Assembly (NCBI GenBank): GCA_001304015.1
Contig: LJUY01000006.1
Span: 22,605-86,604, forward strand
DNA: 64,000 bases
Reading direction: 5' to 3'
Origin: a candidate division Zixibacteria bacterium SM23_81
GTDB lineage: Bacteria; SM23-81
In this document: in pieces, positions 33,462 to 64,000 of the stretch
Position numbering within the stretch: the stretch's first letter is position 1
Layout: every line of letters begins with the position of its first letter
The notes under the pieces: generated by a model
Databases searched by the model: none
The model's input: only the letters and a program-made list of their open reading frames with translations
Told to the model about the DNA's origin: nothing
Translations under genes and position numbers: made by a program

Positions 33462-33487
33462 TAAAAAAAGCCACTGTTTCCGGCGGC
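33462..33487 (-). terminator. Weak candidate terminator after the T9SS hydrolase-like gene
   Basis: On the minus strand a short GC stem (GCCGC...GTGGC with one G-U) is followed by a T7 run. Confidence 0.3.
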
Positions 33488-33514
33488 CACTTCTTGCCCA
33501 CCTTCCCTGCCCCT

Positions 33515-39214: not shown

Positions 39215-39216
39215 AG

Positions 39217-45500: not shown

Positions 45501-45704
45501 ACTTGTTCTTAAGATGGCGTGCCGTTCCGCAACTCGCTGCCAGGCCCTCTTGAAGGCAGAGACGTTTAGGTCTTCATGGAAAGCACAGATAAACTGCACA
45601 TGATATACGCCGGACTGTCGCGTATTTAGGCTATGGAAGAGCATGCCCTGCTGTACGGGTGAAAGGCGGTATGAATCTTCGATATTCTCTGTTTTCATTC
45701 GCAT
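42498..45704 (-). CDS. Non-ribosomal peptide synthetase, module 1 (starter C-A-T)
   Basis: N-terminal C domain (LSPVQQGMLF, HHALLDGRS). A-domain cores (LTYRELNSQANQLA, YTSGSTGRPKGV, FDLSIFE, NLYGPSE, YKTGDL, GRLDYQVKVRGFRIELGEIE). T domain FFELGGHSL. Overlaps module 2 by 4 nt. Confidence 0.95.
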   Translation of the reverse strand: MRMKTENIEDSYRLSPVQQGMLFHSLNTRQSGVYHVQFICAFHEDLNVSAFKRAWQRVAERHAILRTSFRWEGLKEPLQDVHTHVTLPFEEQDWRDLPTEEQKSRLLSYLQTDRCRSFELTEAPLVRLALFRVGQADYRFIWTLHHALLDGRSAYLLWLEIFAFYEAFSQNQDLSLKHAPPYRDYINWLEEQDLTEAETFWRRTLKGFTAPTPLVVDRVHGDKSVEKGDYKEKGIRLTETMTTALRSLAERHELTLNTLIQGAWVLLLSRYSGEEDVVFGATRACRHSALEGIESMVGILLNTLPMRASLSPEKSLLLLLKELRAQWVALREYEHTPLPRIMEWSDIPAGKPLFESLVVFENFTFHSILQAEGGGWEKREVRFTGQTNYPLVLSGYSEPELLLEIGYDRHYFNDATIARMLGHLQTLLEGIVENPQQRLSELSLLTEAERHQLILDWNDTHREYAEEKCIHQLFEDQVDQTPDAIALVFEDEQLTYRELNSQANQLAHYLQKLGVGPEVLVGICVERSVEMMVGLLGILKAGGAYVPFDPWYPKERLAFMLEDTQAPVLLTQQRLAHRFSKEETSVVCLDADREIIARESARTPVTDVTANNMAYVLYTSGSTGRPKGVGIEHHSTVVMLNWAREVFAPEDFASVLLSTSICFDLSIFEQFVPLSWGGKVILVKNALHLRTLPAANDVTLINTVPSTIAELVRADSIPASVHTVNLAGEPLQKHLVQQIYQQNTIQQVFNLYGPSEDTTYSTFALVRGEATGSPPIGRPIANTQVYLQDRHLQSVPIGVLGELYLGGAGLARGYLNYPEMTAEQFIPNPFSAEPGARLYKTGDLARYLPDGNIEFIGRLDYQVKVRGFRIELGEIETVLVGHPAVRETVVMAREDQPGDKRLVAYVVPQQQQTPTINELSGFLRKKLPDYMVPSSFMMLQALPLTPNKKVDRQRLPAPERIRPELEKDFVAPRNPVEEILARIWAQVLGVERVGVHDNFFELGGHSLLTMQVVSHIRDTFKVELPLSSVFEAPTIAGFTQANGDILKAQSATEIDTITSREDFEKLEL

Positions 45705-45824
45705 TTTCTCTCTCGGCTTGACCGATTTTGATGATCAGATGGAAACCAGATAGGGCGGCCAGCTGCTTTTTGTATACAGGAATTAAACCGCTCTCTTTTG
45801 TCGGTAACTCACAATTTTACCAAA

Positions 45825-46457
45825 CTATGCCTCTACAAACTCAAGATGCCCTTGACCTGTTAGGGTATTGAGATCAATGTCAGCGACACACTGGACTTTA
45901 ACGTAATTAAGCGTCAGACCCCCCACAAGATGAGCATTCCCAGTTTGGTTATCGAAATCGGCCTGGTTTAAATCGGTCGTACCATGATCAAGTCTAACTC
46001 CCAGCTCTGTCCCCCCCCTTGTATCCGTGAACTTAACAAGGATATATCCTCGATCGATAGCTTCTCTAAAGAGTTTAACAGTCTTTTCAGGTCGCAGAGC
46101 TATTTCCACTGGATGATCGCCTTCTGAAAGAAATTGTCCCAAATCGTCCCTCGGGTCTTTCTTTTTATTTTTCTCTGCCTCATTTACTTTCAAGGCTTTT
46201 TCCTTATCTCCTTCCTCTCTCTTTTGGGCCATCTCCTCCATTTTCTTTCTGAGACTGAGTGGCCGCATATCCGTCCAGACTTTCTTTATGAAAGCCAGGC
46301 ACTCATCTTTAGACCCACTTTGACCAACCTTTTTCCAGCCAAGAGGCGGATTTCCTTTATGCTCAAGCCAAATAGAATACTGCTCTTCTTGATTTACGAC
46401 GACTTCGTATGTCGTCGTGTCCTCCTGGTTGTCTCTATTCATCTCGCCATCCTCCAA
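45825..46457 (-). CDS. MbtH-like protein fused to a C-terminal domain of unknown function
   Basis: The N-terminal ~70 aa (YEVVVNQEEQYSIWLEHKGNPPLGWKKVG...CLAFIKKVWTDMRP) match the MbtH signature. A K/E-rich linker and a ~100-aa beta-rich C-terminal domain follow. Confidence 0.75.
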   Translation of the reverse strand: MEDGEMNRDNQEDTTTYEVVVNQEEQYSIWLEHKGNPPLGWKKVGQSGSKDECLAFIKKVWTDMRPLSLRKKMEEMAQKREEGDKEKALKVNEAEKNKKKDPRDDLGQFLSEGDHPVEIALRPEKTVKLFREAIDRGYILVKFTDTRGGTELGVRLDHGTTDLNQADFDNQTGNAHLVGGLTLNYVKVQCVADIDLNTLTGQGHLEFVEA

Positions 46458-46754: not shown

Positions 46755-48116
46755 TTACACAGCCACACGCCCATCTACATCCTGGGGCACGCGAACGTCC
46801 ATCATGCTCAGAATGGTGGGCATAAGATCCATAATCTCCACATCTTCCTGTACAGAGCGCCGACCCAGCACCAACAAAAAAGCATCATCGTAAGTGTGCA
46901 TACCCACTAAGGCCGTTTTTTCAAACAACAAAGCTTTCTTAACATCCGCCTTGAGATCAAATCCATCAGTGGGAATGGCGATGAGATCTGCCGCCTGGAA
47001 CAGACTATCCCCGTGATAAATCTCCTCCCTCCTCGCTACCTTCCGGATGACCCTCTCCCCTGTATCTGGGTTCCGAAGCTCTAGGAGACCCTCGGCTACC
47101 TCCCCTCTGACTCGATCATAATCAGAGGGGTCTACACTTCCCTTGGGTTCCCGCCCCTTCATGTTGATGTAGATGCGCCCGGGAAGGAGCGTGTAGGCTT
47201 TGGAGCTGGGATGAATATCCTGGAGGCTCTCAGGTGGATTCTCTCCGAATCTCAGCCATCCCTTCTCCAATAAATATCGACTGAGATTCACCTCTTTCTT
47301 AACGGTGCAAAAGCCGTGGTCGGACAACAGGATAAAGGTAACATCATCGTTCATCCTATTGTGGAACATACCTAGAATCTCGTCGATCTGCTCATAGTAA
47401 TTCAGGAAGGGCGTTTTGTATTCGGGATGTTCCTGCTCCATATGCTCCCACATGAAGTGATTAATTCTATCGGTGCCCATAACATGGAGCTGAAAATAAT
47501 CCCAGGACTGGCGGTCCATGAAATAGGACACGGCCTGAATTCTCCTTTCCAAGGTAATGCGCAAGTCCTCCAAGAACTTGTCCAAGGATTCCCGGGCCTG
47601 GGCAGAATCCACGTCGATTCGGTAACCCATCTGTTCCAGCTGTCCAGCGATCTCCCTGGGGAATGTGGCCTTTTTCAGGTTGGTGGCCAAAAAGCCAGCC
47701 ACCAATATTCCGTTTACGGATCTGACTGGATATGTGACCGGAACGTTGATGACCACGACCCTCTTTCCTCGTTCGCTGAGGATCTCCCACAGAGTCTTGC
47801 TGGTCATGTTCAAAGAGGTGGGTATGAACATCTCGTAGGAGCTAGGACGGTGATCCACGAAGCCGAAGATGCCATGCTTTCCCGGATTTTTCCCGGTCAT
47901 GAAGGTGGACCAGGCCACTGAGGAGATGGTGGGTAATACGGATCTCATCCTGGTGAATGAGCCTTCTTCCACCATCTTGGCAAGGTGCGGAAGCCGTCCT
48001 TGGGACATCTGTGCTTCCAGGAAGCTATAAGGGACACCGTCGAGGCTGAGAACGAAAACGCGGCGTTTTTTTGGCCTAGTTCTAAAAAAAGCCATGTCCT
48101 GTGTTCCTCTGCTCAT
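46755..48116 (-). CDS. AlkP-superfamily PF01663 (type I phosphodiesterase / nucleotide pyrophosphatase-like) protein, paralog 1
   Basis: N-terminal metal-site VLSLDG. LPTISSVAW...GKNPGKHGIFGF aligns to the NPP nucleophile region P-S-x-T-F-P-N-H. The start is probably the ATG at 48095 (AGAGGA upstream). Confidence 0.75.
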   Translation of the reverse strand: MSRGTQDMAFFRTRPKKRRVFVLSLDGVPYSFLEAQMSQGRLPHLAKMVEEGSFTRMRSVLPTISSVAWSTFMTGKNPGKHGIFGFVDHRPSSYEMFIPTSLNMTSKTLWEILSERGKRVVVINVPVTYPVRSVNGILVAGFLATNLKKATFPREIAGQLEQMGYRIDVDSAQARESLDKFLEDLRITLERRIQAVSYFMDRQSWDYFQLHVMGTDRINHFMWEHMEQEHPEYKTPFLNYYEQIDEILGMFHNRMNDDVTFILLSDHGFCTVKKEVNLSRYLLEKGWLRFGENPPESLQDIHPSSKAYTLLPGRIYINMKGREPKGSVDPSDYDRVRGEVAEGLLELRNPDTGERVIRKVARREEIYHGDSLFQAADLIAIPTDGFDLKADVKKALLFEKTALVGMHTYDDAFLLVLGRRSVQEDVEIMDLMPTILSMMDVRVPQDVDGRVAV

Positions 48117-48129: not shown

Positions 48130-48765
48130 TTAGAGATACCCGAGATCCTCTAGCCTTCTCTGGATCTTCTCTTCCTCTTCCTGGGAATAAACCTCATCCT
48201 CCTCCAGCGAAGCCATCTGGTCTGCCACCGTTGACAGGGCCGGAACGTAACCCAATTCTTCTAGCTTCCGGATGACCGTATCTCGACATTCCTCTGGGCC
48301 AGTCTTATCGACCTTTAGGAGAACTTCTGGATGAAGCGGCTCTTCATAAGGATCGTCCACCCCAGTGAAGTCCTTAATCTCTCCCGCCCTGGCCTTCTTG
48401 TACATGCCCTTCACATCTCTTTGCTCACAGACCGCCACAGGGGCAGCCACAAAGACTTCCACAAAGTTGGTGGTCTCCCTTCTGGCATTGTCTCTTGCCT
48501 CTCTATATGGAGAGACAAAAGAAACCAGCACAGCTACCCCATTTCGACTTAACAGCTTGGCTACGAAAGTGACTCGCTCGATGTTTTTGTCTCGGTCCTC
48601 TTTGGAAAAACCCAAATCGCGGGTCAGGCTCTGTCTGACGATGTCTCCATCCAGACGCTCGACCCTCAAATTTCTCCTCTTCAACTCTTCGGCCACCAAA
48701 TCGGCCACCGTCGTCTTGCCGGAGCAGGGAAGCCCTGTGAACCACACGGTACATCCTGGTTGCAT
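48130..48765 (-). CDS. cysC: Adenylylsulfate (APS) kinase
   Basis: P-loop GLPCSGKTT, LDGDIVRQSL and a ~40-aa acidic C-terminal tail. Confidence 0.9.
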   Translation of the reverse strand: MQPGCTVWFTGLPCSGKTTVADLVAEELKRRNLRVERLDGDIVRQSLTRDLGFSKEDRDKNIERVTFVAKLLSRNGVAVLVSFVSPYREARDNARRETTNFVEVFVAAPVAVCEQRDVKGMYKKARAGEIKDFTGVDDPYEEPLHPEVLLKVDKTGPEECRDTVIRKLEELGYVPALSTVADQMASLEEDEVYSQEEEEKIQRRLEDLGYL

Positions 48766-48784
48766 TTTAGGATCCTCCTTGAAC

Positions 48785-50170
48785 TTAGATGATAGATTTT
48801 CCCTCCATATCTTCTGGAACTGGTAGATTGAAAATCCGAAGTATCGTCGGGGCGAGATCCATCAAATGCAGATGAGATACCTTGCCCCTGGGAAGTCCTG
48901 AGTTCTTCATAACAAATATGCCGTATTGCGAGTGATTGGCGTCGTCCGGTCCAGTATCGTTCTCAAAGGTGTGGATGTCTCCGAAGCCCACACTGCCCAC
49001 GGAACGCCAAGATAGGTTCCCGAAGTAGATGATCAAATCTGGAGCCACGTTCTTCACCTGAGGATAGATATCCTGAGGCTTGAAGACACGGGTATTGATG
49101 TTCTCACCATTCTCATCCTCGATGGCCTCCAGCTTGGTAATGAGATGGTCGCGGAACTTCTCATAGTCTTGGGGTTCGATAACTCCCTGGGGCTCCCGGT
49201 TCTTTACATTGAGGAACAGCCGGCCATAATAACCCCCGGAGCCCCAGGCTTTGGTGTGAGGCCAGTCTATGTTATCGTGGCTCAGAGGAAAAACCTCCCT
49301 GGGAGGATTTTTCAATCGCAGATACCCTTCCCTCATGAGCCATTCGTTGATGCAAATCCCACCGTCCATACGTTGAGCGCCGTGATCGGAGACGATGAAG
49401 ATCACGGTCCGCTCGTCCACCTTGCTCACTATTCGACCAACCAGGCTGTCAACATACTGGTAATATTCCTTGAGAACACTCTTGTACGGTGAGTTTGGCT
49501 CATACTTTCTATGCTGCTCATCGAAATACTTCCAGAGGCCATGATGAATCCGATCGATGCCCATATCCACGAACATAAAAAAGTCCCATTCCTTGTTTAC
49601 CAGAAGATGGTTCACAACCCGAAACCTGTTCTCGGTCATATCGTAAATCTGCTTGATGAGATCATCCTTGTCCTCTGTCCTGAACTTCTTCACGTCCAAG
49701 ATGTACTCTCCCACCACATCTTCGATCTCCCTCTTCAACTCCTGCGGATAGGTATATTGGCAGTTTGTGTCCGGGGCCAGAAATCCGGATATCATAGAAC
49801 CATTGAGAGGTTTCGGTGGATAGGTTTGAGGAACGCCAACCAGAACGCTTTTTTTGCCTGCTCGGGACAGTATGTCCCAAACTCGATCCTCCTTGACCGC
49901 TTGAGAGGTAGCGAAGTACATCTCATCATAGGAATAGTTCTTCCGATTGCGAAAGCCATAGAAACCCAACACTCCAGGACTTTTGCTAGACACCATAGAG
50001 GTCCAGGCTGGAACGGTAATGGGTGGTATTGTGCTCTCAAGTTCCCCATACACGCTCTGCTCTAGAATTGCTTTGAAATGAGGTAAATCATCAACCCAGC
50101 GGTCAAAGATCAGCTGAGGGGTAGCGCAATCCAGGCCTATGACCAGCACTTTCCTGCCGGTGTGAGGCAA
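48785..50170 (-). CDS. AlkP-superfamily PF01663-like protein, paralog 2
   Basis: VLVIGLDCATP, IPPITVPAWTSM...GFYGF. Same architecture as paralogs 1 and 3. Confidence 0.75.
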   Translation of the reverse strand: MPHTGRKVLVIGLDCATPQLIFDRWVDDLPHFKAILEQSVYGELESTIPPITVPAWTSMVSSKSPGVLGFYGFRNRKNYSYDEMYFATSQAVKEDRVWDILSRAGKKSVLVGVPQTYPPKPLNGSMISGFLAPDTNCQYTYPQELKREIEDVVGEYILDVKKFRTEDKDDLIKQIYDMTENRFRVVNHLLVNKEWDFFMFVDMGIDRIHHGLWKYFDEQHRKYEPNSPYKSVLKEYYQYVDSLVGRIVSKVDERTVIFIVSDHGAQRMDGGICINEWLMREGYLRLKNPPREVFPLSHDNIDWPHTKAWGSGGYYGRLFLNVKNREPQGVIEPQDYEKFRDHLITKLEAIEDENGENINTRVFKPQDIYPQVKNVAPDLIIYFGNLSWRSVGSVGFGDIHTFENDTGPDDANHSQYGIFVMKNSGLPRGKVSHLHLMDLAPTILRIFNLPVPEDMEGKSII

Positions 50171-50457
50171 AAAGCATCTCCTTTCATCAGATAGTTAAAA
50201 GAGTAACTCTCATCCTCTCAGAATTCACAAAACCTTCATTTTGCTCAGAAAACTCTAGCACACGCGACAAGTTACTCTAAAAAGGATTTCTTGCTTCTTA
50301 TTTTCTTAACAAGCTTTCCTCGTTGTAAACCTTTCCCACCGATTCTCCGGTGCGACAAGAAAATCGAACCTCTTGTTTCTTCCCTGTGGCATGAAGGGTC
50401 TTTCTACGAAAACCTCGAGAACTTCCTAATGATCCAGCCAGGAAGTGAATATTCTGG

Positions 50458-51981
50458 TTATGGGCTAAAAGAATCCTGAAAAATCCCTTTGAGGACTTTT
50501 CCATCAGTATCAATGGGAATGCCTATTTTTAACATATGAAGTATAGTTGGAAAGAGATCGACTATTTCCGCTCCAAAGAACTGCTTTCCCTTTTGTATAA
50601 TTTTGCCGTGTGCGATGAAAATACCCTCCAAACTGTGATCTCCAGAAGCCCAACCTGTCAATTCATATAATCTCTTTTTATATGGACTCGTGGCATAGTT
50701 TTCGTAGGTGTGAAAAACCAAATCAGGTGCTAGGTCAGAAAAGGGACCATTGAAATATTCCTCACGGTAAAATACATCCCGAATGACGGCATGGTTGTTT
50801 TGAGGATCGCGGGTGTTCAACAAGGCCTGCTTTATAAAACTCCTTAATTTCTCATACTCTTCCCCCTGGCTTACAATACCCTCTGGCTCTCTGCCCCTTA
50901 AATTTACCTGTATCCCAACTTGCTGATCCCCAGCACAATAAGCCTTAGTGTTTTTCCAGGAAACTTGGCTTTTAGGAGAGAGTATCTTCCTTCGGCCCGA
51001 TAAATTCCTTAGAACTTGGCGTCTAAGCTTGTGTATAAAGGGAATGTCCAGCGCTCGTAAGAAAGCGAGAGTTCTGGCTTTCCCCTTGCGGAACTTAAGC
51101 AGGTGGTGGGTCATCAACCAATCATTGACATCAAACTGCTTATGCGCCGACTGAAAACCGTGATCTGAGATAAGAATCAACACGGTGTCTTCATCCAACC
51201 TGGCTCGGATTTCTCCTATAGCACTGTCCAACATCATGAAAAATTCATCTATCAATGGCATATACTTTTTAGACTCTTCAGCATTGAATTCGGGATGAGT
51301 ACCATCGATATACTTCCACAAGCAATGTTGCACTCTATCTGGTCCGGTAAAAACGACTATACAAAAATCTGGCTGATAGAGGTCGAGAAGAAAAAGTGTC
51401 GCCTCTTTTCTTATTGTGGTCATTTTTTTCACGTCTTCAATGAGATCGCTCACTCTATTTTTGTACCACTTCCAGACTAGATTTATGGGGTAGTCTCCGA
51501 TTTTCTCTTTAAGCTTCTTTCCCAGCTCCTCAGGATAGGTGAATGTGCTATTTGTACTCGGGGTAAGCATGCCCGAGATTAAAAAACCATTCACTGGCTG
51601 CGGTGGGTAAGTGAGGGGCACATTTATCACGCCAACCTTTTTGCTATTGCGACTTAAAATTCTCCATAAAGTCTCACTTTTCATTACTTTCGAATGGACA
51701 ACCCTCTTTCGGTAAAAATCGGAAGAGTCAGGGATTCTAAATCCAAAAATGCTGTGTTTCCCGGGTTTTTTCCCGCTCATGAAGGAGGCCCAAGCTGCCA
51801 TGGAATTTGGCGGAATTACAGATTTTAATTCACCAAAGGTCCCTGTTTTAATGAGCTCTGCCAAATTCGGCATTTTGCCCCTGGATATCATTGGGTCCAA
51901 TATTTTGAATGTGGCTCCATCTAAACCAATAACCATCACTTTGCTCTTCACATGTCCTCCATAGATGACCTTTTTATACAA
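50458..51981 (-). CDS. AlkP-superfamily PF01663-like protein, paralog 3
   Basis: VMVIGLDGATF, IPPNSMAAWASF...GKKPGKHSIFGF. 507 aa. The start is uncertain (ATG at 51981 or 51936). Confidence 0.75.
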   Translation of the reverse strand: MYKKVIYGGHVKSKVMVIGLDGATFKILDPMISRGKMPNLAELIKTGTFGELKSVIPPNSMAAWASFMSGKKPGKHSIFGFRIPDSSDFYRKRVVHSKVMKSETLWRILSRNSKKVGVINVPLTYPPQPVNGFLISGMLTPSTNSTFTYPEELGKKLKEKIGDYPINLVWKWYKNRVSDLIEDVKKMTTIRKEATLFLLDLYQPDFCIVVFTGPDRVQHCLWKYIDGTHPEFNAEESKKYMPLIDEFFMMLDSAIGEIRARLDEDTVLILISDHGFQSAHKQFDVNDWLMTHHLLKFRKGKARTLAFLRALDIPFIHKLRRQVLRNLSGRRKILSPKSQVSWKNTKAYCAGDQQVGIQVNLRGREPEGIVSQGEEYEKLRSFIKQALLNTRDPQNNHAVIRDVFYREEYFNGPFSDLAPDLVFHTYENYATSPYKKRLYELTGWASGDHSLEGIFIAHGKIIQKGKQFFGAEIVDLFPTILHMLKIGIPIDTDGKVLKGIFQDSFSP

Positions 51982-53146
51982 TAGCTCGATAAATATCGAT
52001 AACTCTTTCAGCGTTTCTTTTCCAAGTATGGTGCTTTCTTATATGCTCCATAATCTTAGATCCAAGCTCCTTCCGAAGCTTGGAATCATTAACCAGAATG
52101 AGGATTTTCTCTTTCAAGTCCTCTGCATCACCAGGATTTATCAAAATCCCATTTTTGCCATCCTCTATGACTTCTTGAACGGGTGCTGTACGCGGGGCAA
52201 TCACCGGTTTCCCCATGGCCCCGTACTCAAAAATCTTAATTGGCGAACCATTCCAATTGGAGTTGGGCATCACACAAATATCCATTGCTGCAATATGAGC
52301 GGGCACCGCCTCAAAGGGAATCCCACCGGTGAGCGTAAAATGTTCGCTTACGCCTCTGCCTTTTAAATTCTCTTCAAACTGCCTCCTATCCCTAAAGCGA
52401 CCAACTACAAGAAAATGTAGTTCCTTCCTCTCTCTGATCAAATCCTGGGCCAATCTTATGAGAAGCTCTACGCCATGATGTTTGTGCATACTTCCCACAA
52501 ACCCAATGACTATTTTACCTCGCAGACTATATTTATTCCGAATGTCTTGGAAGGCACTGCTAGAATCAAACAATTCAGTATCTACACCATTTGGCAAGAC
52601 ATGTATCTTCCTTGAAGGAACCCCTCTTTTGACAAGATAATCCCTCATAACCCCAGATATAGTGATTATGGCATTCGTACATTTTTCAACTTTTCTTTGA
52701 ATCAATGAGGCCAAGAATGAAAAGTGAGCTGGACCAAACCGACTTCTTGCCTCTATGGGGGCATTGATTTCCAGAATGTGGGGTATTTTGAGATCTCGCG
52801 CTATTGTTGAACTTGCCCAAAAAAAATAGGAATACCTTTCATAAATAAAGTCGGGGATCTCCCTCTTAAAAAAAGACTTATAAGAGCTTAAGAAATTGTA
52901 GTTATAGTATATTTTGTACCCATCTCTCACCATCGAAGCAATAGATAGGGGTAAAATGTACTTCTGGTTTGAGAAAGACAATTTGGCTTGGCTTTCTCTT
53001 GTGCCTTGCCCAGCAATTATGGGGACGACCATATGTCCAAGTTTACGATATGCCTCTATTAAATTGACTATATGAGATGTCGATCCTGTATAAACAGAAT
53101 TATCTATTCTTAGCCCTGGATTCCCAACAACATAAAGAATCTTCAT
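51974..53146 (-). CDS. Glycosyltransferase family 4 (GT-B, retaining)
   Basis: The C-terminal EYGAMGKPVIAPRTAPVQEVIEDGKNGILI motif is the GT1/GT4 E-x7-E region. Typical ~390-aa length. Confidence 0.8.
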   Translation of the reverse strand: MKILYVVGNPGLRIDNSVYTGSTSHIVNLIEAYRKLGHMVVPIIAGQGTRESQAKLSFSNQKYILPLSIASMVRDGYKIYYNYNFLSSYKSFFKREIPDFIYERYSYFFWASSTIARDLKIPHILEINAPIEARSRFGPAHFSFLASLIQRKVEKCTNAIITISGVMRDYLVKRGVPSRKIHVLPNGVDTELFDSSSAFQDIRNKYSLRGKIVIGFVGSMHKHHGVELLIRLAQDLIRERKELHFLVVGRFRDRRQFEENLKGRGVSEHFTLTGGIPFEAVPAHIAAMDICVMPNSNWNGSPIKIFEYGAMGKPVIAPRTAPVQEVIEDGKNGILINPGDAEDLKEKILILVNDSKLRKELGSKIMEHIRKHHTWKRNAERVIDIYRAIV

Positions 53147-53258
53147 GAGGTATCACTGCGTTTCCACTTATGGTTCAAGGTAACATTTTTAGGCACAGCA
53201 GTTGCTTTGATTCCCCTGAATGCGGTGAGAGAACTTGCTTTTTCGACTTTCTCTGCCT

Positions 53259-54410
53259 CTATTCAACAAAGGGATCATCTGCGCTAGCCAAAACTTCCAC
53301 TATTTCCGGTCTCATAATCTCCGAGGCCACCTCAGCGCCCTCGGTGATGATCCCCCGTATTTTGGTCCCGCTGGGAGTTAGCCACGAGTCTTTCTGGTGG
53401 GGACAGGTCTTAGCTGTGGCCATGTTCTCACAGGCTTGACAGTAAAAAGAGTGCTCGAAGAAGAGAGGTTGAATTCCTAGATCGGGAAAATCGGCGAAAA
53501 TCCTGTGTGCGGCATAGGTATCGTAATAATCGCCAACGCCAGCGTGATCCCGTCCGATGATGTGATGGGTACAGCCGAAGTTCTTTCTGACTATGGCGTG
53601 GAAAATGGCCTCTTTGGGCCCCGCGTAGCGCATCTGCCATGGCAGAATGCTCATCACCACCCTGTTCTGAGGATAGAAGTCGTCGATGAGAGTCTGATAG
53701 GCCTTTAGGATCAGCTCATCGGTAAAGTCGCCGCTTTTTTTTCTCCCGATAACTGGATTGATGAACAAACCGTCACAGATTTCCAAAGCACACTTCTGAA
53801 TATATTCGTGGGCTCGGTGGGGCGGATTTCGCGTCTGAAAGGCTACCACCGTATCCCATCTCCTTTTCCGAAATAGATAGCGAGTCTCCTTGGGAGAGAG
53901 ATTATAGCGCTTATATGGTATCCTGATGTCCTCCAGTAAATCCACAGCACCGCTCAAGAAGACATCGTGAAGGCCGAGGAATTTTTTCACTCCAGGATGT
54001 TTTTCATCGTCGGTTCCGAAAACGCCCCTGGCGATTTTCAATTTGTCAAATCGATATTTCTCCTCTAAATGTAATAGGGCCAGAGGAATTCCGGCCTCAT
54101 CCATAAGGGTGAGGGTTTGTCCTTCCTTCAAGAACCTGGCCTGAGATTCCTCCACGGCCAACAGAATGGGAATCGTCCAGGCCAGCCCTTTGGCCAAACG
54201 CCCCTCCTTGACCACAGATTCCACATCGGCGCTGCCCATGAATCCTTCCAGAGGACTGAAGACACCCCGAGCGAGATTCTGGACCTCAGAGACGGTCTCA
54301 GCAGACACGGTCAACTGAAACATTCCAGGAATCTCAGTCAGGATGTCTGCTCCTTTCTCTGGGCTCAATATTCGATTGACCAGTTTTCCACCATGAGGTT
54401 TAATCAACAA
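53259..54410 (-). CDS. sat: Sulfate adenylyltransferase (ATP sulfurylase, single-chain Sat type)
   Basis: QTRNPPHRAHE and GRDHAG motifs. 383 aa. Confidence 0.9.
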   Translation of the reverse strand: MLIKPHGGKLVNRILSPEKGADILTEIPGMFQLTVSAETVSEVQNLARGVFSPLEGFMGSADVESVVKEGRLAKGLAWTIPILLAVEESQARFLKEGQTLTLMDEAGIPLALLHLEEKYRFDKLKIARGVFGTDDEKHPGVKKFLGLHDVFLSGAVDLLEDIRIPYKRYNLSPKETRYLFRKRRWDTVVAFQTRNPPHRAHEYIQKCALEICDGLFINPVIGRKKSGDFTDELILKAYQTLIDDFYPQNRVVMSILPWQMRYAGPKEAIFHAIVRKNFGCTHHIIGRDHAGVGDYYDTYAAHRIFADFPDLGIQPLFFEHSFYCQACENMATAKTCPHQKDSWLTPSGTKIRGIITEGAEVASEIMRPEIVEVLASADDPFVE

Positions 54411-54497: not shown

Positions 54498-55529
54498 CTA
54501 TTGGGAGCTTCTTTTGAACACCCCCTCTCCCCAGGTGCCGGCGTAGACGACATGAGGAGTAAAGGGAGCCACCGCCAGGGCTTTGACATCTACTTCGGTG
54601 AGCCCCTCGTTCCACTGCGCCCAGTTCTGGCCTGCATCAGTGCTTCGATAAACTCCATTGTTGGTAGCGGCGTATAAGCAGTCGGTGTTAGAGGGACTCA
54701 TGCCGATCACCCTCACATCCCTGGTTCCTCCAAATCCTTTGACGACATTGGTCCACAGCCCGGCCGCATTGGTACTCTTGTAAACGCCCATGACGTTTGA
54801 ACCGACATATAAAATATTCGGGTCGATGGGATTGATCAGAACCCATTGAATTCTCGCCGAGGGGCCATTTAGGTTAATCCCATTGTTGCCGACGGACCAA
54901 CTATCGCCGCCATCTTCACTTTTGTAAAAGTTATCGAATTTCCCTCCAGCGTAGACAATCTGGGAATTCTGGGGATGAACAGCCAAAGAGGCACGATTGT
55001 AATAGAAGATATAAAACAAAGTGTCGGCGCCATTATAACTCCTGTTGATACCACCATCACACCCAATGAAGAGGGTGTCCGAATGAGTAGGGTCGGTGGC
55101 TATGCTGTAAATAGTGGGATCCACGAGACCCACCTTTTTCCCCTCCCAACTCTCGCCTCCATCCTCGCTTTTAAAAACTCCAGACCCGTAAGTGCCCACA
55201 TACATTGTTTCCGGATGCAGCGCATCGAAAGCGATGGCGGATATCTGGGAATAAGTCCACCCACTGTCCAATCGCGTCCAAGTTTGGGCACCGTCGGTGC
55301 TTTTATAAAGACCACCCCAAGTACCACTGAAAATAATGTCGGAATTGCTGGGATGAACAGCTAAAAATCGCACAAAAAGATTCTCCAGACCAGAATTAAC
55401 CGCCGACCACTGATTTGAGTCAGAATCAGTGGGCGATTTTTTACCGCAGGATATGGCCAGGATACAAAAAAAGCACCCTAGGAGAAAAAACTTGGCGGCG
55501 ATGGACCTGTCTGTCGAATATAGGTTCAT
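54498..55529 (-). CDS. BNR/Asp-box repeat beta-propeller lipoprotein (Ycf48/sortilin-like)
   Basis: Lipoprotein signal (ILAISCG). Repeated S-x-D-x-G-x-T-W boxes (STDGAQTW, SEDGGESW, SEDGGDSW, STDAGQNW). Confidence 0.7.
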   Translation of the reverse strand: MNLYSTDRSIAAKFFLLGCFFCILAISCGKKSPTDSDSNQWSAVNSGLENLFVRFLAVHPSNSDIIFSGTWGGLYKSTDGAQTWTRLDSGWTYSQISAIAFDALHPETMYVGTYGSGVFKSEDGGESWEGKKVGLVDPTIYSIATDPTHSDTLFIGCDGGINRSYNGADTLFYIFYYNRASLAVHPQNSQIVYAGGKFDNFYKSEDGGDSWSVGNNGINLNGPSARIQWVLINPIDPNILYVGSNVMGVYKSTNAAGLWTNVVKGFGGTRDVRVIGMSPSNTDCLYAATNNGVYRSTDAGQNWAQWNEGLTEVDVKALAVAPFTPHVVYAGTWGEGVFKRSSQ

Positions 55530-55559
55530 GACTCAGTTCTCCTTTGAAAACAGGAGTTC

Positions 55560-57041
55560 CTAATCCCCCTGGGTTGATGTCATATCATATAATCCACCGT
55601 AAAGGTTCGTGAAGCTGGTCTCTATCACCGTGGGGAAAGTTCTCTTCATATAGTCTTTCAACTTTCCCTCCGGATCCATCAGCCATGGCCTGCCCAGGAC
55701 CAACCACGCCCGCTGGTGACCTTGAACGCGCGCCGCGATCATCTTCTCATGGAAGCTAGGTGACCAAAAAGCTGTGTGGACGGTGAGTGGACCCTGGTAG
55801 TAGTATGTGAACGGCTTCAGGGGTGCGGCCAAGATTACATCTCCATCTTCAGAATGTGCGCTTATATATTGCGCAGCCCACCGATAGCGCGCTTTGGCGT
55901 GTCTATCTTGGAAGTAATGGCCGTGGACAGAATATAAAGTGACAACGACGACGACTCCCATGAGCCCCCACCGGATGATCCCCCTTCGTGGGGCCAGAAG
56001 GCCTCGGGTCAGGATGAGTCCATAGGCTGGCAAGGCCACTGAGGCATAACGTACATTATAGGAGATCTGTGGCCACACCAGAGATACCAGACACCCGCCC
56101 ACGATGGGGGTTATCAGATAAAGCAGAATGAAAACCAGCCGCTCCCGATCCCGCCACAGAGATCGCAGACCCAGAGCAAAGATGGCTGCGAATAAAAGGG
56201 CTACTGGCAGAATCTGACTTAGGTAAGGTCGAAGGGTGCTCAGGGAGGCCGACCAGTGCAGCTCCGCTACAGAAGGGCCATAGCTAAATCCCAGGCTAAA
56301 TGCAAAAAAAGTATAGGGAACTGAGAAAACTTGAAGAGGATTTCCGCCAGCTCCTTGGGTCAAGAAGACCACATACCGCCCACCCCCGAGGAGAAGATAA
56401 ACGATGGGCAGGACCATAATTGCTACAATTCCCAGGGAATAGCCAAATCGACGTATGACAGGGCGGTACGTCTTCAGGAATATAAAGAAGAATGCCACTT
56501 GGCACAATAGGACGAAGATGGCATAATAATGTGTGTATATGGCCAATCCCATAGTTACAGCCCACCATACGCCTGGGCGACCCCTCTGCTCTTGAAGGAA
56601 CTTGACGAAATATAGCGCCGATGCTGCGCTCAGCAAGATGAGCAGACTGTACATCCTGGCATCCTGGGAATACCAGATGTGAAATGGGGAGATGGCCAAT
56701 AAAAAAGCGCACACAAGACCGTGTTTGGTATCCCAAAGGCTTCTCCCCAGCAGATAGGCAATCCCTAGGGTGGCTATCCCGAAAAGAGCTGGTAGCAATC
56801 TGATCATCACATCGCTGCGACCCAAGTAAAGCCAAAAATGAAGCAGGATGTGATACAGAACAGGCGTTTGGCAAAAGCGGATGGCTACTACCCCCAGGTC
56901 CCTGGCCGAGAGGCAGACACTATAAACTTCGTCATAAGAGAAACTCTGGCCACCCAGCCTCACGAGCCTGAGAACGGTGCCCAGCACCAAGATGAGCAAC
57001 AGATAGATGCTCACACGCTTTTTGGGGATGGCTTCATTCAT
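55560..57041 (-). CDS. GT-C fold membrane glycosyltransferase (ArnT/PMT-like, GT39/GT83, COG1807)
   Basis: About 12 predicted TM helices. First periplasmic loop has SFSYDEVY (the DE motif of PMT/ArnT-type transferases). Hydrophilic C-terminal domain. Confidence 0.75.
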   Translation of the reverse strand: MNEAIPKKRVSIYLLLILVLGTVLRLVRLGGQSFSYDEVYSVCLSARDLGVVAIRFCQTPVLYHILLHFWLYLGRSDVMIRLLPALFGIATLGIAYLLGRSLWDTKHGLVCAFLLAISPFHIWYSQDARMYSLLILLSAASALYFVKFLQEQRGRPGVWWAVTMGLAIYTHYYAIFVLLCQVAFFFIFLKTYRPVIRRFGYSLGIVAIMVLPIVYLLLGGGRYVVFLTQGAGGNPLQVFSVPYTFFAFSLGFSYGPSVAELHWSASLSTLRPYLSQILPVALLFAAIFALGLRSLWRDRERLVFILLYLITPIVGGCLVSLVWPQISYNVRYASVALPAYGLILTRGLLAPRRGIIRWGLMGVVVVVTLYSVHGHYFQDRHAKARYRWAAQYISAHSEDGDVILAAPLKPFTYYYQGPLTVHTAFWSPSFHEKMIAARVQGHQRAWLVLGRPWLMDPEGKLKDYMKRTFPTVIETSFTNLYGGLYDMTSTQGD

Positions 57042-57780
57042 GAGTATTTTTCACCTCGGGGACTCTCTGTTGCATCTGTTCAATTCCCAGAAGGATCTTC
57101 AACGCCGAGGCCACGTATCCCCACCCATCCCGCATAAATCGAGTTTTAGCCTGCCCCTTTTCTCGAGGTCGATACACCACGGGTATCTCGCCAACGGCCG
57201 CGGAGTCGCGAATGGCATTGTACATGAGGCGGAAATGAAAATCCCCATACCCATAAAAAATCCGATTCAGATCCCATCGATTCAACAGAGATCGTTTAAC
57301 GGCCAGGAATCCATTGGTATTATCGGTTGTCTTCAGTCCCAAGGTAATCTTGAGAAACCAATTGATGGCCAGGCTGAATATGCGGGCCCGGGCGTTCCCC
57401 TGAAAACCCCCCAGGTGCAAGTAGCGAGAGCCACTGACCAAGTCGTATTCCCCCACCTTCAGGAGCAGCGCCGGCAGGTCTTCAGGATTATGGCTGAAAT
57501 CGGCATCCATCAGAACCACAACATCCGCGTAAGATGCTTTAATACCTGCCTTTATCGCGGTGGCCAGACCCCTTTGGCCATTGCGCAAGACGAGCTTGAC
57601 CTGACTCATAGTTGAGCAGTTCTGCCTGACGACATCCGCTGTTCCGTCTGGGCTGTCATCGTCCACCACCACGATCTGGTAGTCGATGCCGGAATCGGCC
57701 ATGATGCGAGAGAGACTCTGGATCAGAGGGACGATGTTCTCCCTCTCATTGTATGTGGGTAGAATTACCGCAACATTCAT
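57034..57780 (-). CDS. Polyprenyl-phosphate glycosyltransferase, GT2 (ArnC/DPM1-like, short form)
   Basis: ILPTYNEREN, VVVDDDSPDGT and LMDADFSH (DXD-equivalent) motifs. 248 aa without C-terminal TM helices. Confidence 0.85.
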   Translation of the reverse strand: MNVAVILPTYNERENIVPLIQSLSRIMADSGIDYQIVVVDDDSPDGTADVVRQNCSTMSQVKLVLRNGQRGLATAIKAGIKASYADVVVLMDADFSHNPEDLPALLLKVGEYDLVSGSRYLHLGGFQGNARARIFSLAINWFLKITLGLKTTDNTNGFLAVKRSLLNRWDLNRIFYGYGDFHFRLMYNAIRDSAAVGEIPVVYRPREKGQAKTRFMRDGWGYVASALKILLGIEQMQQRVPEVKNTHE

Positions 57781-58907: not shown

Positions 58908-58921
58908 CTCTTTCGGGTTCC

Positions 58922-63237: not shown

Positions 63238-64000
63238 CGTTCTGCCGATACCAGTCGATGGTCCGTCCTAATCCCTCCTCAAGCGATATCTGAGGCCGCC
63301 AGTTAAACAGGGTCATGGCCTTAAAATAGCTGCAATTCAAGCGCTCCACGTCCAATGGACGGAGTCTGACCTTTTCAACCTGGATGTCAACTTGCTGTCG
63401 TTCCATAAGTCGAGCGATGATCTGGGCCAGCTCCTCCACAGACCAATCCCGTCCTTGTCCCAGGTTGACCACTTCACCCACGGCCTTATCGCACTGCATC
63501 AGCTCGATGGCCCCTTTGACAGCGTCGTCCACGTATGTCAAGTCTCTTCGGGCTTTCACGTTCCCCAGCTTCAGACGATTGCCCCTGTCCAGCTGCGTAA
63601 TCAGCTCGGGGATGATGTAGGGGTGTGTTTCGCGAGGGCCATAAGTATTGAACTGGCGCAGGATAATGATGGGCAGATTTTGCTCCTTGTACAAACTATA
63701 GCAGAGCCTATCGGCGGCCAGCTTGCTCACGGCGTAGGTGGAACAGGGCCTCAGGGGATGGTGTTCGTCCATGGGCACATATCGTGCGCTGCCATAAACC
63801 TCCGAGGAGGAATACTGGAGAACCCTCTGAACCCCGGCATCTTTGCAGGCCAACATCACGTTTAAAGCCCCAGTGGCGTTTACCTCAAAGAACTTGCGAG
63901 GTCGGTCGTAACAATGCGGGATGTAAGGCTCGGCGGCCAAATTGAACACGCAGTCAATTCCATTCTGGCGCATAATGTCATTCAGGTTCGGATCTAAGAT
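63134..64000 (-). CDS. NAD-dependent sugar-nucleotide epimerase/dehydratase (extended SDR; UXS / ArnA-C-terminal-like). The 5' end lies beyond the window.
   Basis: FNLAA, Y-x3-K (YAVSK) and RQFNTYGPRE motifs. The reading frame continues upstream of the first in-frame ATG to the window edge. Confidence 0.8.
   Translation of the reverse strand: MLDPNLNDIMRQNGIDCVFNLAAEPYIPHCYDRPRKFFEVNATGALNVMLACKDAGVQRVLQYSSSEVYGSARYVPMDEHHPLRPCSTYAVSKLAADRLCYSLYKEQNLPIIILRQFNTYGPRETHPYIIPELITQLDRGNRLKLGNVKARRDLTYVDDAVKGAIELMQCDKAVGEVVNLGQGRDWSVEELAQIIARLMERQQVDIQVEKVRLRPLDVERLNCSYFKAMTLFNWRPQISLEEGLGRTIDWYRQNGGRWVWETKMATEEEVWHGGEEGKSPDHGGTSGP

What the first reader, a model, noticed from the sequence alone, without database searches (positions are those of the whole stretch)
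48130..54410. PAPS-synthesis pair (sat + cysC) embedded in a glycoconjugate cluster, 17 kb from the only recognisable sulfotransferase
Single-chain ATP sulfurylase and APS kinase sit among glycosyltransferases and PF01663 genes with no sulfite-reduction genes (no cysH/cysI). This arrangement is typical of dedicated PAPS supply for sulfation, as with NodPQ, rather than sulfur assimilation. The only classical PAPS-dependent sulfotransferase (29324..30364) lies on the opposite strand in the AT-rich island, beyond the NRPS genes. Either that enzyme serves this pathway in trans, or an unrecognised sulfotransferase is present in the array.
Basis: inference. Interest (0 to 1): 0.6.

Follow-up and report, generated by a model that had tools for sequence, protein, structure and literature searches.

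The report
Four-gene PAPS module in polysaccharide locus
A Zixibacteria surface-polysaccharide gene cluster carries its own supply line for activated sulfate, and two of the three "phosphodiesterase-like" genes beside it are conserved partners of the sulfate-activating enzymes across many bacterial phyla; the likely role of one is suggested by archaeal work, and the role of the other is unknown.

Summary
They lie on the minus strand inside a long Wzx/Wzy-type polysaccharide operon, and no sulfite-reduction genes occur in the window or 5 kb beyond it.

The interleaved PF01663 genes are not bystanders.
- **A type (48785-50170).** It lies beside sat or cysC in 67 of 80 species-level loci from more than 10 phyla. 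It is fused in frame to SAT in about 20 of them and to CysC in others. It is more conserved than SAT itself (median identity 57% against 46%). An archaeal PF01663 protein in the same operon position (TON_1705) was reported to be an inorganic pyrophosphatase, so A most likely pulls the SAT reaction.
- **B type (46755-48116).** This is a second conserved partner, in the order sat-A-cysC-B. It also pairs with cysDN. Its function is unknown; a pAp phosphatase is my best guess.
- **C type (50458-51981).** With GT4 it forms a low-GC variable cassette typical of polysaccharide loci.

The classical sulfotransferase (29324-30364) is syntenic. A relative carries a 62%-identical copy in the same slot, 6.7 kb from B. 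The 17-kb gap in the window is an inserted NRPS block.

Verdict: a dedicated PAPS supply for sulfation, and a new variant of a known kind. An alkaline-phosphatase-fold sulfotransferase (B or C) is not excluded.

The parts
53259..54410 (-). sat: single-chain ATP sulfurylase (PUA_2 + ATP-sulfurylase), 383 aa
   Evidence: Pfam E 1.2e-93 and 1.6e-47. NCBIfam NF003166 scores 526 bits, above its cutoff of 387. 75% identical to the copy in relative L091.
51974..53146 (-). GT4 glycosyltransferase. Low-GC cassette partner of C; overlaps the start of C by 8 nt.
   Evidence: Glyco_trans_1_4 and Glycos_transf_1 E about 1e-30. GC 0.407. Only 23-26% identical to the GT4 at this position in relatives.
50458..51981 (-). 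PF01663 'C type': cytoplasmic alkaline-phosphatase-superfamily paralogue in a variable cassette. Function unknown; candidate glycan-modifying enzyme.
   Evidence: PF01663 E 2.5e-39. Metal-ligand and Ser-nucleophile columns are conserved with A and B. GC 0.421. Elsewhere, C-type genes are flanked by Wzx flippases, GT4, GT2 and methyltransferases. One C type is fused to a methyltransferase (P0388).
48785..50170 (-). PF01663 'A type': conserved third component of the SAT/APS-kinase module. Most likely an inorganic pyrophosphatase that pulls the SAT reaction.
   Evidence: - PF01663 E 3.4e-49.
- 55-65% identical across phyla.
- Next to sat or cysC in 67 of 80 loci; SAT-A fusion in 20 loci and A-CysC fusion in 1.
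- Gene-called fusions with SAT, APSK and NTP_transferase.
- Median identity 57%, against 46% for sat.
- The catalytic set D14/T52/N75/D206/H210/D262/H263/H413 is conserved.
- Literature on the archaeal operon and TON_1705: PMC8268124, PMC4463584, PMC9653972.
48130..48765 (-). cysC: APS kinase, 211 aa
   Evidence: APS_kinase E 1e-62. TIGR00455 scores 227 bits (cutoff 138.7) and NF002059 scores 249 bits (cutoff 244).
46755..48116 (-). PF01663 'B type': conserved fourth component. Function unknown; best guess is a by-product (pAp) phosphatase.
   Evidence: - PF01663 E 1.6e-47.
- 100% identical to AMJ92_03135 of Zixibacteria bacterium SM23_81, and 50-56% identical across phyla.
- Canonical order sat-A-cysC-B.
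- Also found next to cysDN and next to Sulfotransfer_3.
29324..30364 (+). Classical PAPS-dependent sulfotransferase (Sulfotransfer_3); probable consumer of the PAPS
   Evidence: Pfam E 8.3e-36. Closest solved relatives are the CurM sulfotransferase (E 3e-11) and tyrosylprotein sulfotransferases. RSGTT and RDGRD motifs are present. A 62%-identical orthologue sits in the same syntenic slot in L091.
30779..31741 (+). SAM methyltransferase in the same low-GC cassette as the sulfotransferase
   Evidence: Methyltransf_23 E 4.7e-21. GC 0.351.
54498..63973 (-). Upstream part of the same operon: BNR/Sortilin-like protein, PMT_2 (ArnT-like), GT2, DegT aminotransferase, KamA-family radical-SAM aminomutase, LPG_synthase_TM, ATP-grasp, epimerase. 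Wzx, Wzy and two more epimerases lie just beyond the window.
   Evidence: Pfam and NCBIfam hits. Gene table of L176 for the region beyond the window.
36845..46457 (-). Inserted block: MbtH-like gene, two NRPS modules, PPTase and two alpha/beta hydrolases. This block creates the 17-kb gap.
   Evidence: Pfam hits. The block is absent at this position in relatives L091 and L092, where B is followed by another PF01663 gene and then the ASD1/T9SS gene.
25962..35479 (.). Synteny anchors around the sulfotransferase slot: the Peptidase_MA/PD40/Omp85 gene (25962-28781, -) and the ASD1/T9SS-tail gene (33515-35479, -)
   Evidence: 74% and 50-54% identical to the flanking genes in L092 and L091. The slot between them holds Sulfotransfer_3 in L091 and a GT1 in L092.

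Best explanation
The region is a self-contained sulfate-activation module built into a Wzx/Wzy-dependent surface-polysaccharide operon of a Zixibacterium (candidate division Zixibacteria bacterium SM23_81). Its gene order is sat ... PF01663-A, cysC, PF01663-B. It makes PAPS for sulfation, not for cysteine synthesis.

**Shown**
- sat and cysC are intact.
- The operon context is polysaccharide biosynthesis, and no reductive genes are nearby.
- A and B are conserved partners of sulfate-activating enzymes across bacteria, and A-type proteins also occur in archaea.

**Inferred**
- SAT makes APS and PPi, a reaction with a very unfavourable equilibrium.
- A, a cytoplasmic NPP-fold two-metal enzyme with a Thr nucleophile, hydrolyses the PPi and pulls the reaction. 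This is the activity reported for the archaeal operon protein TON_1705, and it parallels the SAT-pyrophosphatase fusions of eukaryotic algae.
- CysC converts APS to PAPS.
- PAPS is used by the syntenic Sulfotransfer_3 enzyme (29324-30364), and possibly by the C-type paralogue, to sulfate the glycan or another product of the locus.
- B most likely removes another by-product, probably pAp. That would take the place of the DHH pApase in the archaeal operon.

The 17-kb distance to the sulfotransferase is secondary and was caused by an NRPS insertion.
For: **Gene identities and context**
- Gene identities.
- The operon continues into Wzx, Wzy and epimerases, with no cysH or cysI.

**A type**
- 67 of 80 species loci have sat or cysC within 3 kb on the same strand, and 48 have both.
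- 20 loci carry in-frame SAT-A fusions and 1 carries A-CysC.
- The fusion P0062 reads through without a stop.
- Gene-called fusions in the representative library include SAT-A (P0246), APSK-A (P0250) and NTP_transferase-A (P0301). The last partner is another PPi-releasing enzyme. All score as A type.
- A is the most conserved module member: median identity 57%, against 54% for cysC and 46% for sat.
- A co-occurs with the SAT type and not with the GTP-driven CysDN type: 56 of the 80 A-centred loci have sat and none has cysDN. B does pair with cysDN.

**Literature**
- An archaeal operon with sat, a DHH pApase, a 'type I phosphodiesterase/nucleotide pyrophosphatase' and APS kinase is described in PMC8268124 and PMC4463584.
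- Kinetic values for TON_1705 acting on PPi (kcat 2.1 per s, Km 18.8 uM) are tabulated in PMC9653972.
- SAT-pyrophosphatase fusions in stramenopiles and haptophytes, with the rationale, are in PMC2275785.

**Structure**
- High-confidence NPP fold and a conserved catalytic set.

**Sulfotransferase**
- Synteny with L091.
Against: - No Thermococcales protein appeared among the listed archaeal homologues.
- The reported PPase turnover of TON_1705 is low for a pyrophosphatase, and alkaline-phosphatase-superfamily enzymes are promiscuous.
- Some A-type genes lie in polysaccharide clusters without sat or cysC (L005, L008, L055, L078). Some are fused to GT2 or to a pyruvate-kinase barrel. A simple 'SAT helper' role does not predict these cases, although NDP-sugar synthesis also releases PPi.
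- No activity was measured for any protein of this locus.
- B's role as a pAp phosphatase rests only on analogy. B also occurs beside cysDN without cysC, where pAp need not be formed.
- Whether the genome has other sat or cysC copies, or a reductive pathway, is unknown.
Confidence: 0.6

Rival explanations
1. One or more of the cytoplasmic PF01663 paralogues are the real sulfotransferases. C is the first candidate, then B, and less likely A. In this reading a Ser/Thr nucleophile at the two-metal site takes the sulfuryl group from PAPS and passes it to a sugar hydroxyl. Other alkaline-phosphatase-superfamily transferases move phosphoethanolamine or glycerol phosphate in a comparable way.
For: - Classical sulfotransferases are rare around the module. 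Sulfotransfer_3-like genes occur in only 2 of 160 loci, and only one sulfotransferase (L104) was recorded in Pfam censuses of 242 flanking ORFs, whose family tables list only the top 25 families.
- C types sit beside Wzx flippases, GT4, GT2 and methyltransferases. One is fused to a methyltransferase.
- A and B lie beside glycosyltransferases without sat or cysC in Brocadiaceae.
- An A type is fused to GT2 (P0288).
- B has Asp88 where NPPs and A have the phosphate-binding Asn.
Against: - I know of no alkaline-phosphatase-superfamily sulfotransferase, and the literature searches found none.
- This locus and relative L091 do carry a classical sulfotransferase. Two other loci place one directly beside B.
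- A's very high conservation, and its self-contained SAT-A plus cysC operons in Chloroflexota with no glycan genes around, fit a fixed small-molecule substrate better than varied acceptors.
Confidence: 0.2
2. sat and cysC are simply the organism's assimilatory sulfate-activation genes, feeding a PAPS reductase encoded elsewhere. Their place in the polysaccharide operon would then be incidental.
For: - In Chloroflexota, SAT-A plus cysC modules stand alone without glycan genes, so the module as such is not restricted to sulfation.
- The archaeal operon has been discussed as assimilatory (PMC8268124, PMC4463584).
- The rest of this genome could not be searched.
Against: - The genes are embedded on the same strand and tightly spaced among glycosyltransferases, with Wzx and Wzy upstream.
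- The arrangement GT4-A-cysC-B recurs in three related Zixibacteria-like contigs, also within glycan genes.
- A PAPS-dependent sulfotransferase is syntenic.
- No cysH, cysI or cysJ occurs in 69 kb.
Confidence: 0.1
3. A acts on the adenylyl-sulfate nucleotides themselves and not on PPi. It could be an APS/PAPS hydrolase that controls the pool, or the pAp phosphatase, with B having another role.
For: - NPP-family enzymes cleave nucleotide pyrophosphate bonds, and the closest folds are nucleotide-cleaving NPPs.
- A is fused to both SAT and CysC.
- A travels with B and glycosyltransferases without SAT in Brocadiaceae. This ties it to PAPS use at least as much as to APS synthesis.
Against: - Hydrolysing APS or PAPS next to the enzymes that make them would be futile.
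- In the archaeal operon a separate DHH enzyme is the pAp phosphatase, and the PF01663 protein is reported to hydrolyse PPi (PMC8268124, PMC4463584, PMC9653972).
- Fusion to a nucleotidyltransferase that releases PPi but not pAp (P0301).
- A pairs with SAT and not with GTP-driven CysDN.
Confidence: 0.1

Closest known systems
Archaeal sulfate-activation operon of Thermococcales: TON_1704-1707 in Thermococcus onnurineus and PYCH_17530-17560 in Pyrococcus yayanosii. It encodes ATP sulfurylase, a DHH pAp phosphatase, a PF01663-type 'nucleotide pyrophosphatase' reported as an inorganic PPase, and APS kinase.
   Same: - A PF01663-family gene lies between or beside sat and cysC.
- It is an operon of sulfate activation plus by-product removal, with no reductive genes adjacent.
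- In some other archaea a sulfotransferase lies next to this cluster (PMC8268124).
   Different: - Here the organism is bacterial and the module sits inside a Wzx/Wzy polysaccharide operon.
- There is no DHH pApase. A second conserved PF01663 paralogue (B) follows cysC instead, and a third (C) is present.
- In many bacteria A is fused to SAT or CysC.
- Sequence orthology of A to TON_1705 was not testable here.
NodPQ / dedicated CysDN(C) copies for Nod-factor sulfation in rhizobia
   Same: A separate PAPS supply is placed within a glycoconjugate-modification locus and serves a sulfotransferase rather than cysteine synthesis.
   Different: NodPQ is the heterodimeric, GTPase-coupled CysD/CysN type with a fused kinase. 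Here the sulfurylase is the single-chain SAT (PF01747) with a separate CysC, plus accessory proteins of the alkaline-phosphatase superfamily. It works like NodPQ but is not a member.
ATP sulfurylase-inorganic pyrophosphatase fusion proteins of stramenopiles and haptophytes (PMC2275785)
   Same: SAT is physically coupled to an enzyme that removes PPi and so shifts the unfavourable equilibrium. The bacterial SAT-A fusions are the same design, if A is a PPase.
   Different: The eukaryotic partner is an inorganic pyrophosphatase. I assume it is the classical soluble family I type; the paper does not say. The bacterial partner is an NPP-fold (PF01663) enzyme with a covalent Thr nucleophile.
NPP / PF01663 branch of the alkaline-phosphatase superfamily (Xac NPP, ENPP4/6/7, PhnA, PafA)
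   Different: - Only 11-19% sequence identity.
- The window proteins have no signal peptide (read from the N-termini), so they are probably cytoplasmic. The characterised NPPs are, to my knowledge, secreted or ecto-enzymes.
- A has the family-specific motifs GLDCA, FRNR and GGICIN.
- No member of the A, B or C families has a solved structure.

Membership tests
Dedicated PAPS-supply module for sulfation (functional class, NodPQ-like) | Intact ATP sulfurylase and APS kinase | tested here: met
   Both pass Pfam and NCBIfam cutoffs.
Dedicated PAPS-supply module for sulfation (functional class, NodPQ-like) | Located inside a glycoconjugate or secondary-metabolite locus, with no PAPS/APS reductase or sulfite reductase adjacent | tested here: met
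   Same-strand operon with GT4, GT2, PMT_2 and DegT; Wzx and Wzy lie just upstream. No reductive genes in the window plus 5 kb.
Dedicated PAPS-supply module for sulfation (functional class, NodPQ-like) | A PAPS-dependent sulfotransferase belonging to the same locus | tested here: met
   Sulfotransfer_3 at 29324-30364. A 62%-identical orthologue lies in the same slot of relative L091, 6.7 kb from B. Functional coupling is inferred, not shown.
Dedicated PAPS-supply module for sulfation (functional class, NodPQ-like) | A separate assimilatory sulfate-activation set elsewhere in the genome | not testable with these tools
NodPQ / CysDN homologues | Heterodimeric CysD (PAPS_reduct fold) plus CysN (GTPase) sulfurylase | tested here: not met
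   The sulfurylase is PUA_2 plus ATP-sulfurylase (PF01747), and the window has no GTP_EFTU or PAPS_reduct genes. It is therefore not a NodPQ family member, only a functional analogue.
Archaeal sat-pApase-PPase(PF01663)-cysC operon (TON_1704-1707 type) | PF01663-family gene adjacent to both sat and cysC, conserved across taxa | tested here: met
   67 of 80 loci have sat or cysC next to A, 48 have both, and fusions occur. An archaeal A-type protein (P0392, 38% identical) lies next to cysC.
Archaeal sat-pApase-PPase(PF01663)-cysC operon (TON_1704-1707 type) | Sequence orthology of A to the characterised protein TON_1705 | not testable with these tools
   The TON_1705 and PYCH_17550 sequences were not obtainable. 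A profile of archaeal homologues listed no Thermococcales protein among its best 120 hits.
Archaeal sat-pApase-PPase(PF01663)-cysC operon (TON_1704-1707 type) | DHH-family pAp phosphatase in the operon | tested here: not met
   The window has no DHH gene, and none appears among the most frequent families in the flanking-gene censuses. PF01663-B occupies the position after cysC instead.
Archaeal sat-pApase-PPase(PF01663)-cysC operon (TON_1704-1707 type) | Inorganic pyrophosphatase activity of the PF01663 protein | not testable with these tools
   This needs an enzyme assay. The only basis is the literature values for TON_1705 (PMC9653972, Table 1).
NPP / PF01663 alkaline-phosphatase-superfamily enzymes | Fold, two-metal ligand set and Ser/Thr nucleophile | tested here: met
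Classical PAPS-dependent sulfotransferases (Sulfotransfer_1/2/3) | Sulfotransferase fold and PAPS-binding motifs, asked of the PF01663 proteins A, B and C | tested here: not met
   A, B and C hit only PF01663 and weakly PF00884. If any of them transfers sulfate, it would be a new class. The gene at 29324-30364 does meet this feature.

The most novel reading that the evidence does not exclude
The B-type and/or C-type cytoplasmic PF01663 proteins are PAPS-dependent sulfotransferases built on the alkaline-phosphatase fold, working through a covalent sulfo-Ser/Thr intermediate at a two-metal site. This would be a previously unrecognised class of sulfotransferase. It would explain why most sat-A-cysC-B modules, and the polysaccharide clusters that carry them across more than 10 phyla, have no classical sulfotransferase nearby.
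Probability: 0.17. Interest if true: 0.85.

Novelty: new variant of a known kind. Interest (0 to 1): 0.55.

Why it matters
**What a specialist can use**
- In many uncultured bacterial phyla, sulfate activation comes as a four-gene module and not as a pair. One PF01663 partner (A) is more conserved than the ATP sulfurylase itself and is often fused to it. The other (B) has no known function.
- A and B are annotated only as 'alkaline phosphatase family protein', 'phosphodiesterase' or 'hypothetical protein'. Pathway reconstructions from metagenomes therefore miss them.

**What it makes testable**
- Whether a cell can pull the unfavourable ATP sulfurylase reaction with a dedicated NPP-fold pyrophosphatase.
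- What removes pAp in organisms that lack an adjacent CysQ or DHH enzyme.
- Whether the alkaline-phosphatase fold has been recruited for sulfuryl transfer.

**What it says about the organism**
- It points to sulfated surface polysaccharides in Zixibacteria and in other sediment lineages.

The finding as originally stated, sat plus cysC serving sulfation, is in itself ordinary.

Tried and rejected
- **Solved relatives.** Sequence searches of PDB with A alone and with a 74-sequence profile gave nothing closer than NPP, PhnA or sulfatases at E of about 1e-4.
- **Literature.** The following term pairs and terms returned nothing relevant:
  - PF01663 with sulfotransferase
  - COG3379
  - 'alkaline phosphatase family protein' with 'adenylyl-sulfate kinase'
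  - Zixibacteria with sulfotransferase

  The key primary paper (Lee et al. 2009, PMC2687159) is not held.
- **Reaching TON_1705.** I looked up names for 20 representative homologues and searched with an archaeal profile. This found A-type proteins in Thermoprotei, Diapherotrites, Theionarchaea and Asgard-group MAGs, but none from Thermococcales. The one Thermoprotei context examined was stand-alone.
- **Regulatory elements.** An Rfam scan of the window gave no hits. Promoter and terminator scans of 45-58 kb were at background. The 288-bp gap between C and A showed nothing notable.
- **pAp-phosphatase role for A.** Considered and set aside, because the archaeal operon has a separate DHH pApase and because A is fused to a nucleotidyltransferase.
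- **Sulfotransferase as an unrelated recent import.** Rejected on synteny with L091, although the gene does lie in low-GC DNA.

Full report
**1. The observation**

The window is a stretch of a Zixibacteria genome. The B-type protein is 100% identical to AMJ92_03135 of candidate division Zixibacteria bacterium SM23_81. The closest species-level genome locus is a Candidatus Zixiibacteriota MAG.

A Pfam and NCBIfam map of all larger ORFs shows one long minus-strand array, listed here in transcription order:
- epimerase, ATP-grasp, LPG_synthase_TM
- KamA-family radical-SAM aminomutase, DegT aminotransferase, GT2
- PMT_2 (ArnT-like) and a BNR/Sortilin-like protein
- sat (53259-54410)
- GT4 (51974-53146)
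- PF01663 'C' (50458-51981)
- PF01663 'A' (48785-50170)
- cysC (48130-48765)
- PF01663 'B' (46755-48116)
- an MbtH-like gene, two NRPS modules, a PPTase, two hydrolases and a deacetylase

Both sat and cysC exceed curated NCBIfam cutoffs. The same contig continues beyond the right end of the window into two more epimerases, a Wzx flippase and a Wzy-type gene. The array is therefore a Wzx/Wzy surface-polysaccharide locus.

No PAPS/APS reductase or sulfite reductase is present in the window or in that extension. The only classical sulfotransferase is Sulfotransfer_3 at 29324-30364, on the plus strand. Its GC content is 0.417, against 0.511 for the window.

**2. The PF01663 genes belong to the sulfate-activation machinery**

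The 461-aa A protein has homologues that are 55-65% identical in many lineages. Names given by the sources include:
- Chloroflexota, Thermodesulfobacteriota, Brocadiaceae and Latescibacterota
- Poribacteria, Nitrospinota, Methylomirabilota and Ktedonobacteria
- Marinimicrobia, Caldithrix and others

I fetched 80 loci, one per GTDB species, and located homologues of the window proteins in them with phmmer.
- 59 loci have cysC and 56 have sat within 3 kb on the same strand as A.
- 67 loci have at least one of the two, and 48 have both.
- Of the 41 loci with at least 2.5 kb of sequence on both sides, 34 have at least one.
- In 20 loci SAT and A form a single open reading frame of about 865 aa, for example L013 8789-11383.
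- In L073, A is fused to CysC.

The database protein P0062 is such a SAT-A fusion. It reads straight from the SAT C-terminus into the A domain without a stop.

A search of 1.84 billion cluster representatives found 3672 relatives with E below 1e-30. Among the multidomain ones:
- SAT-A (P0246)
- APS kinase-A (P0250)
- nucleotidyltransferase-A (P0301)
- A-pyruvate kinase barrel-SAT (P0293)
- A-pyruvate kinase barrel (P0315)
- A-GT2 (P0288)

All of these score as A type rather than B or C.

Over 60 loci that carry all three genes, median identity to the window proteins is 57% for A, 54% for CysC and 46% for SAT. A is thus the most constrained member of the module.

**3. B is a second conserved partner**

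B is 50-56% identical across phyla. In the A-centred loci it follows cysC in 15 cases. A B-centred scan of metagenome contigs gave the canonical order sat-A-cysC-B many times. Of the 27 loci with at least 2.5 kb on both sides, 16 have cysC, A or sat next to B.

The loci where B stands without these partners are informative.
- B lies directly beside cysD-cysN, the GTPase-coupled sulfurylase, in L172, L166 and L137. In L161 a GT4 gene lies between them, and in L155 a cysD-like gene follows B. None of these loci has an A-type gene, and none has cysC in the sequence held.
- B lies beside a classical Sulfotransfer_3 in L104 and L168.
- B lies beside A and glycosyltransferases without sat or cysC in a Brocadiaceae MAG. 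A and B are also adjacent in Loosdrechtia and a Latescibacterota MAG.

In contrast, none of the 80 A-centred loci has cysDN.

**4. C is different**

The window's C protein is about 30% identical to A and B. It is only 32-33% identical to the extra PF01663 genes of close relatives. Together with GT4 it lies in low-GC DNA (0.42 and 0.41).

I examined 36 ORFs that flank 25 C-type genes in other loci. The commonest families were:
- Wzx-type flippases (9)
- GT1/GT4 (4)
- methyltransferases (3)
- GT2 (2)
- sulfatase-family proteins (2-3)

One C type is fused to a methyltransferase (P0388). C types therefore look like variable, glycan-associated enzymes.

**5. What the proteins are**

All three paralogues keep the two-metal ligands and a Ser/Thr nucleophile.
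- A keeps an Asn (N75) at the position where, by my motif alignment to the Xac NPP sequence recalled from memory, NPPs have their phosphate-binding Asn. In A it is flanked by two Arg (R74 and R76).
- B has an Asp at this position.
- C has neither.

None of the three has a signal peptide (read from the N-termini), so they are probably cytoplasmic.

**6. Literature**

A conserved archaeal cluster is described for Pyrococcus yayanosii, Thermococcus onnurineus and others (PMC8268124, PMC4463584). It encodes ATP sulfurylase, a DHH pAp phosphatase, a 'type I phosphodiesterase/nucleotide pyrophosphatase' and APS kinase.

T. onnurineus TON_1705 is cited there as an inorganic pyrophosphatase, with reference to Lee et al. 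2009 (J Bacteriol 191:3415). I could not read that paper. Its kinetic values are tabulated in PMC9653972: kcat 2.1 per s, Km 18.8 uM and pH optimum 9.5.

SAT fused to an inorganic pyrophosphatase is known in stramenopiles and haptophytes. The stated rationale is that PPi removal shifts the very unfavourable SAT equilibrium (PMC2275785).

I found nothing on the bacterial module, on the SAT-A fusions or on B.

**7. Mechanism**

The best-supported reading runs as follows.
- SAT makes APS and PPi.
- A hydrolyses the PPi.
- CysC makes PAPS.
- A sulfotransferase uses the PAPS.
- B removes another by-product.

Arguments for A as a PPase:
- the precedent of the archaeal operon
- fusion to two unrelated PPi-releasing enzymes, SAT and a nucleotidyltransferase
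- pairing with the single-chain SAT and not with GTP-driven CysDN
- conservation typical of an enzyme with a fixed small substrate
- compatibility with A-type genes found in sugar-nucleotide and polysaccharide clusters

Arguments against, or gaps:
- orthology to TON_1705 is untested
- the reported turnover is low
- the fusions to GT2 and to a pyruvate-kinase barrel are unexplained

For B, the analogy with the archaeal DHH pApase suggests a pAp phosphatase. However, B's pairing with cysDN where no cysC is visible leaves this weak. I put A as a PPase at about 0.55 and B as a pAp phosphatase at about 0.3.

**8. The sulfotransferase question**

Two related contigs show the ancestral layout: GT4-A-cysC-B-PF01663-...-ASD1/T9SS gene-[slot]-Peptidase_MA/PD40/Omp85 gene. 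These are L091, whose A is 80% identical to the window's, and L092, at 82%.
- In L091 the slot holds a Sulfotransfer_3 on the opposite strand. It is 62% identical to the window's enzyme and lies 6.7 kb from B.
- In L092 the slot holds a GT1.
- In the window the same two anchor genes flank the sulfotransferase, a methyltransferase and a GDSL gene.
- The MbtH-NRPS-NRPS-PPTase-hydrolase block is inserted between B and the ASD1 gene.

The sulfotransferase therefore belongs to the variable end of this locus, and the 17-kb distance is secondary.

Its closest solved relatives are the CurM polyketide sulfotransferase and tyrosylprotein sulfotransferases. The acceptor could be a glycan, a peptide or a lipid, and it cannot be named from sequence.

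Classical sulfotransferases are rare around the module elsewhere. An HMM built from the three Sulfotransfer_3 genes found them in only 2 of 160 loci. Pfam censuses of 242 flanking ORFs recorded only the one in L104, although their family tables list only the top 25 families. This keeps open the possibility that B or C types transfer sulfate themselves.

**9. Comparison and verdict**

Functionally, this is a dedicated PAPS supply like NodPQ. It is not a NodPQ homologue, because the sulfurylase is of the SAT type.

It is closest to the archaeal sat-pApase-PPase-cysC operon. The differences are:
- two or three PF01663 paralogues instead of one PF01663 protein plus a DHH enzyme
- frequent domain fusions in bacteria
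- placement inside a polysaccharide operon

I rate it a new variant of a known kind, with interest 0.55. The finding as written is ordinary. The conserved four-gene module and the unknown functions of B and C are worth a biochemist's attention.

Noticed in passing
window 58922-63237 (-): A KamA-family radical-SAM aminomutase with an N-terminal extension of about 200 aa (633 aa; TIGR00238, 317 bits) lies next to an LPG_synthase_TM protein and an ATP-grasp ligase inside the polysaccharide operon. This suggests that a beta-amino acid is made and attached to the glycan or a lipid.
   Followed up: no
window 36845-46457 (-): A two-module NRPS (C-A-T, then TubC-dock-C-A-T) has no thioesterase domain. 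It is accompanied by a PPTase, two alpha/beta hydrolases and an MbtH-like protein fused to a C-terminal domain of about 150 aa with a weak CBF_beta hit. The whole block is absent from the same position in relatives L091 and L092, so it is an insertion into the glycan locus.
   Followed up: partly
window 29324-31741 and 50458-53146: Two low-GC cassettes lie in a window of GC 0.51: sulfotransferase plus methyltransferase (0.417 and 0.351), and PF01663-C plus GT4 (0.421 and 0.407). They look like exchangeable glycan-modification cassettes. In relatives, the genes at these positions differ or are only 23-33% identical.
   Followed up: partly
P0293 (1151 aa) and P0315 (786 aa), from the representative library: A-type PF01663 domains are fused to a pyruvate-kinase barrel, and in P0293 also to SAT. 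One possible reading is ATP regeneration beside PAPS synthesis. This is unexplained.
   Followed up: no
Ktedonobacteria loci such as L050, L063, L068, L069 and L071: The order there is A-cysC-sat. The flanking-gene census of A-centred loci counted five ORFs each with myo-inositol-1-phosphate-synthase-like, SIS and GHMP-kinase domains, which I attributed to the genes downstream of sat in these loci. This hints at a sulfated sugar or inositol product in that lineage.
   Followed up: no
L091 15154-17190: In the closest relative, the module is followed by a 678-aa PF00884 (sulfatase-family) protein with an N-terminal extension of about 200 aa. That makes a fourth alkaline-phosphatase-superfamily gene in one glycan locus, possibly a membrane-anchored group transferase of the LtaS/EptA kind.
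   Followed up: no
window 15161-16255 and 16339-19314 (-): Two large ORFs (364 and 991 aa) next to a TonB-dependent receptor gene have no Pfam match.
   Followed up: no
L004 11433-11684, and two ORFs flanking C-type genes in the census: A small DUF2061 membrane protein sits between A and cysC in a Syntrophobacterales genome. DUF2061 also appears twice among the neighbours of C-type genes.
   Followed up: no
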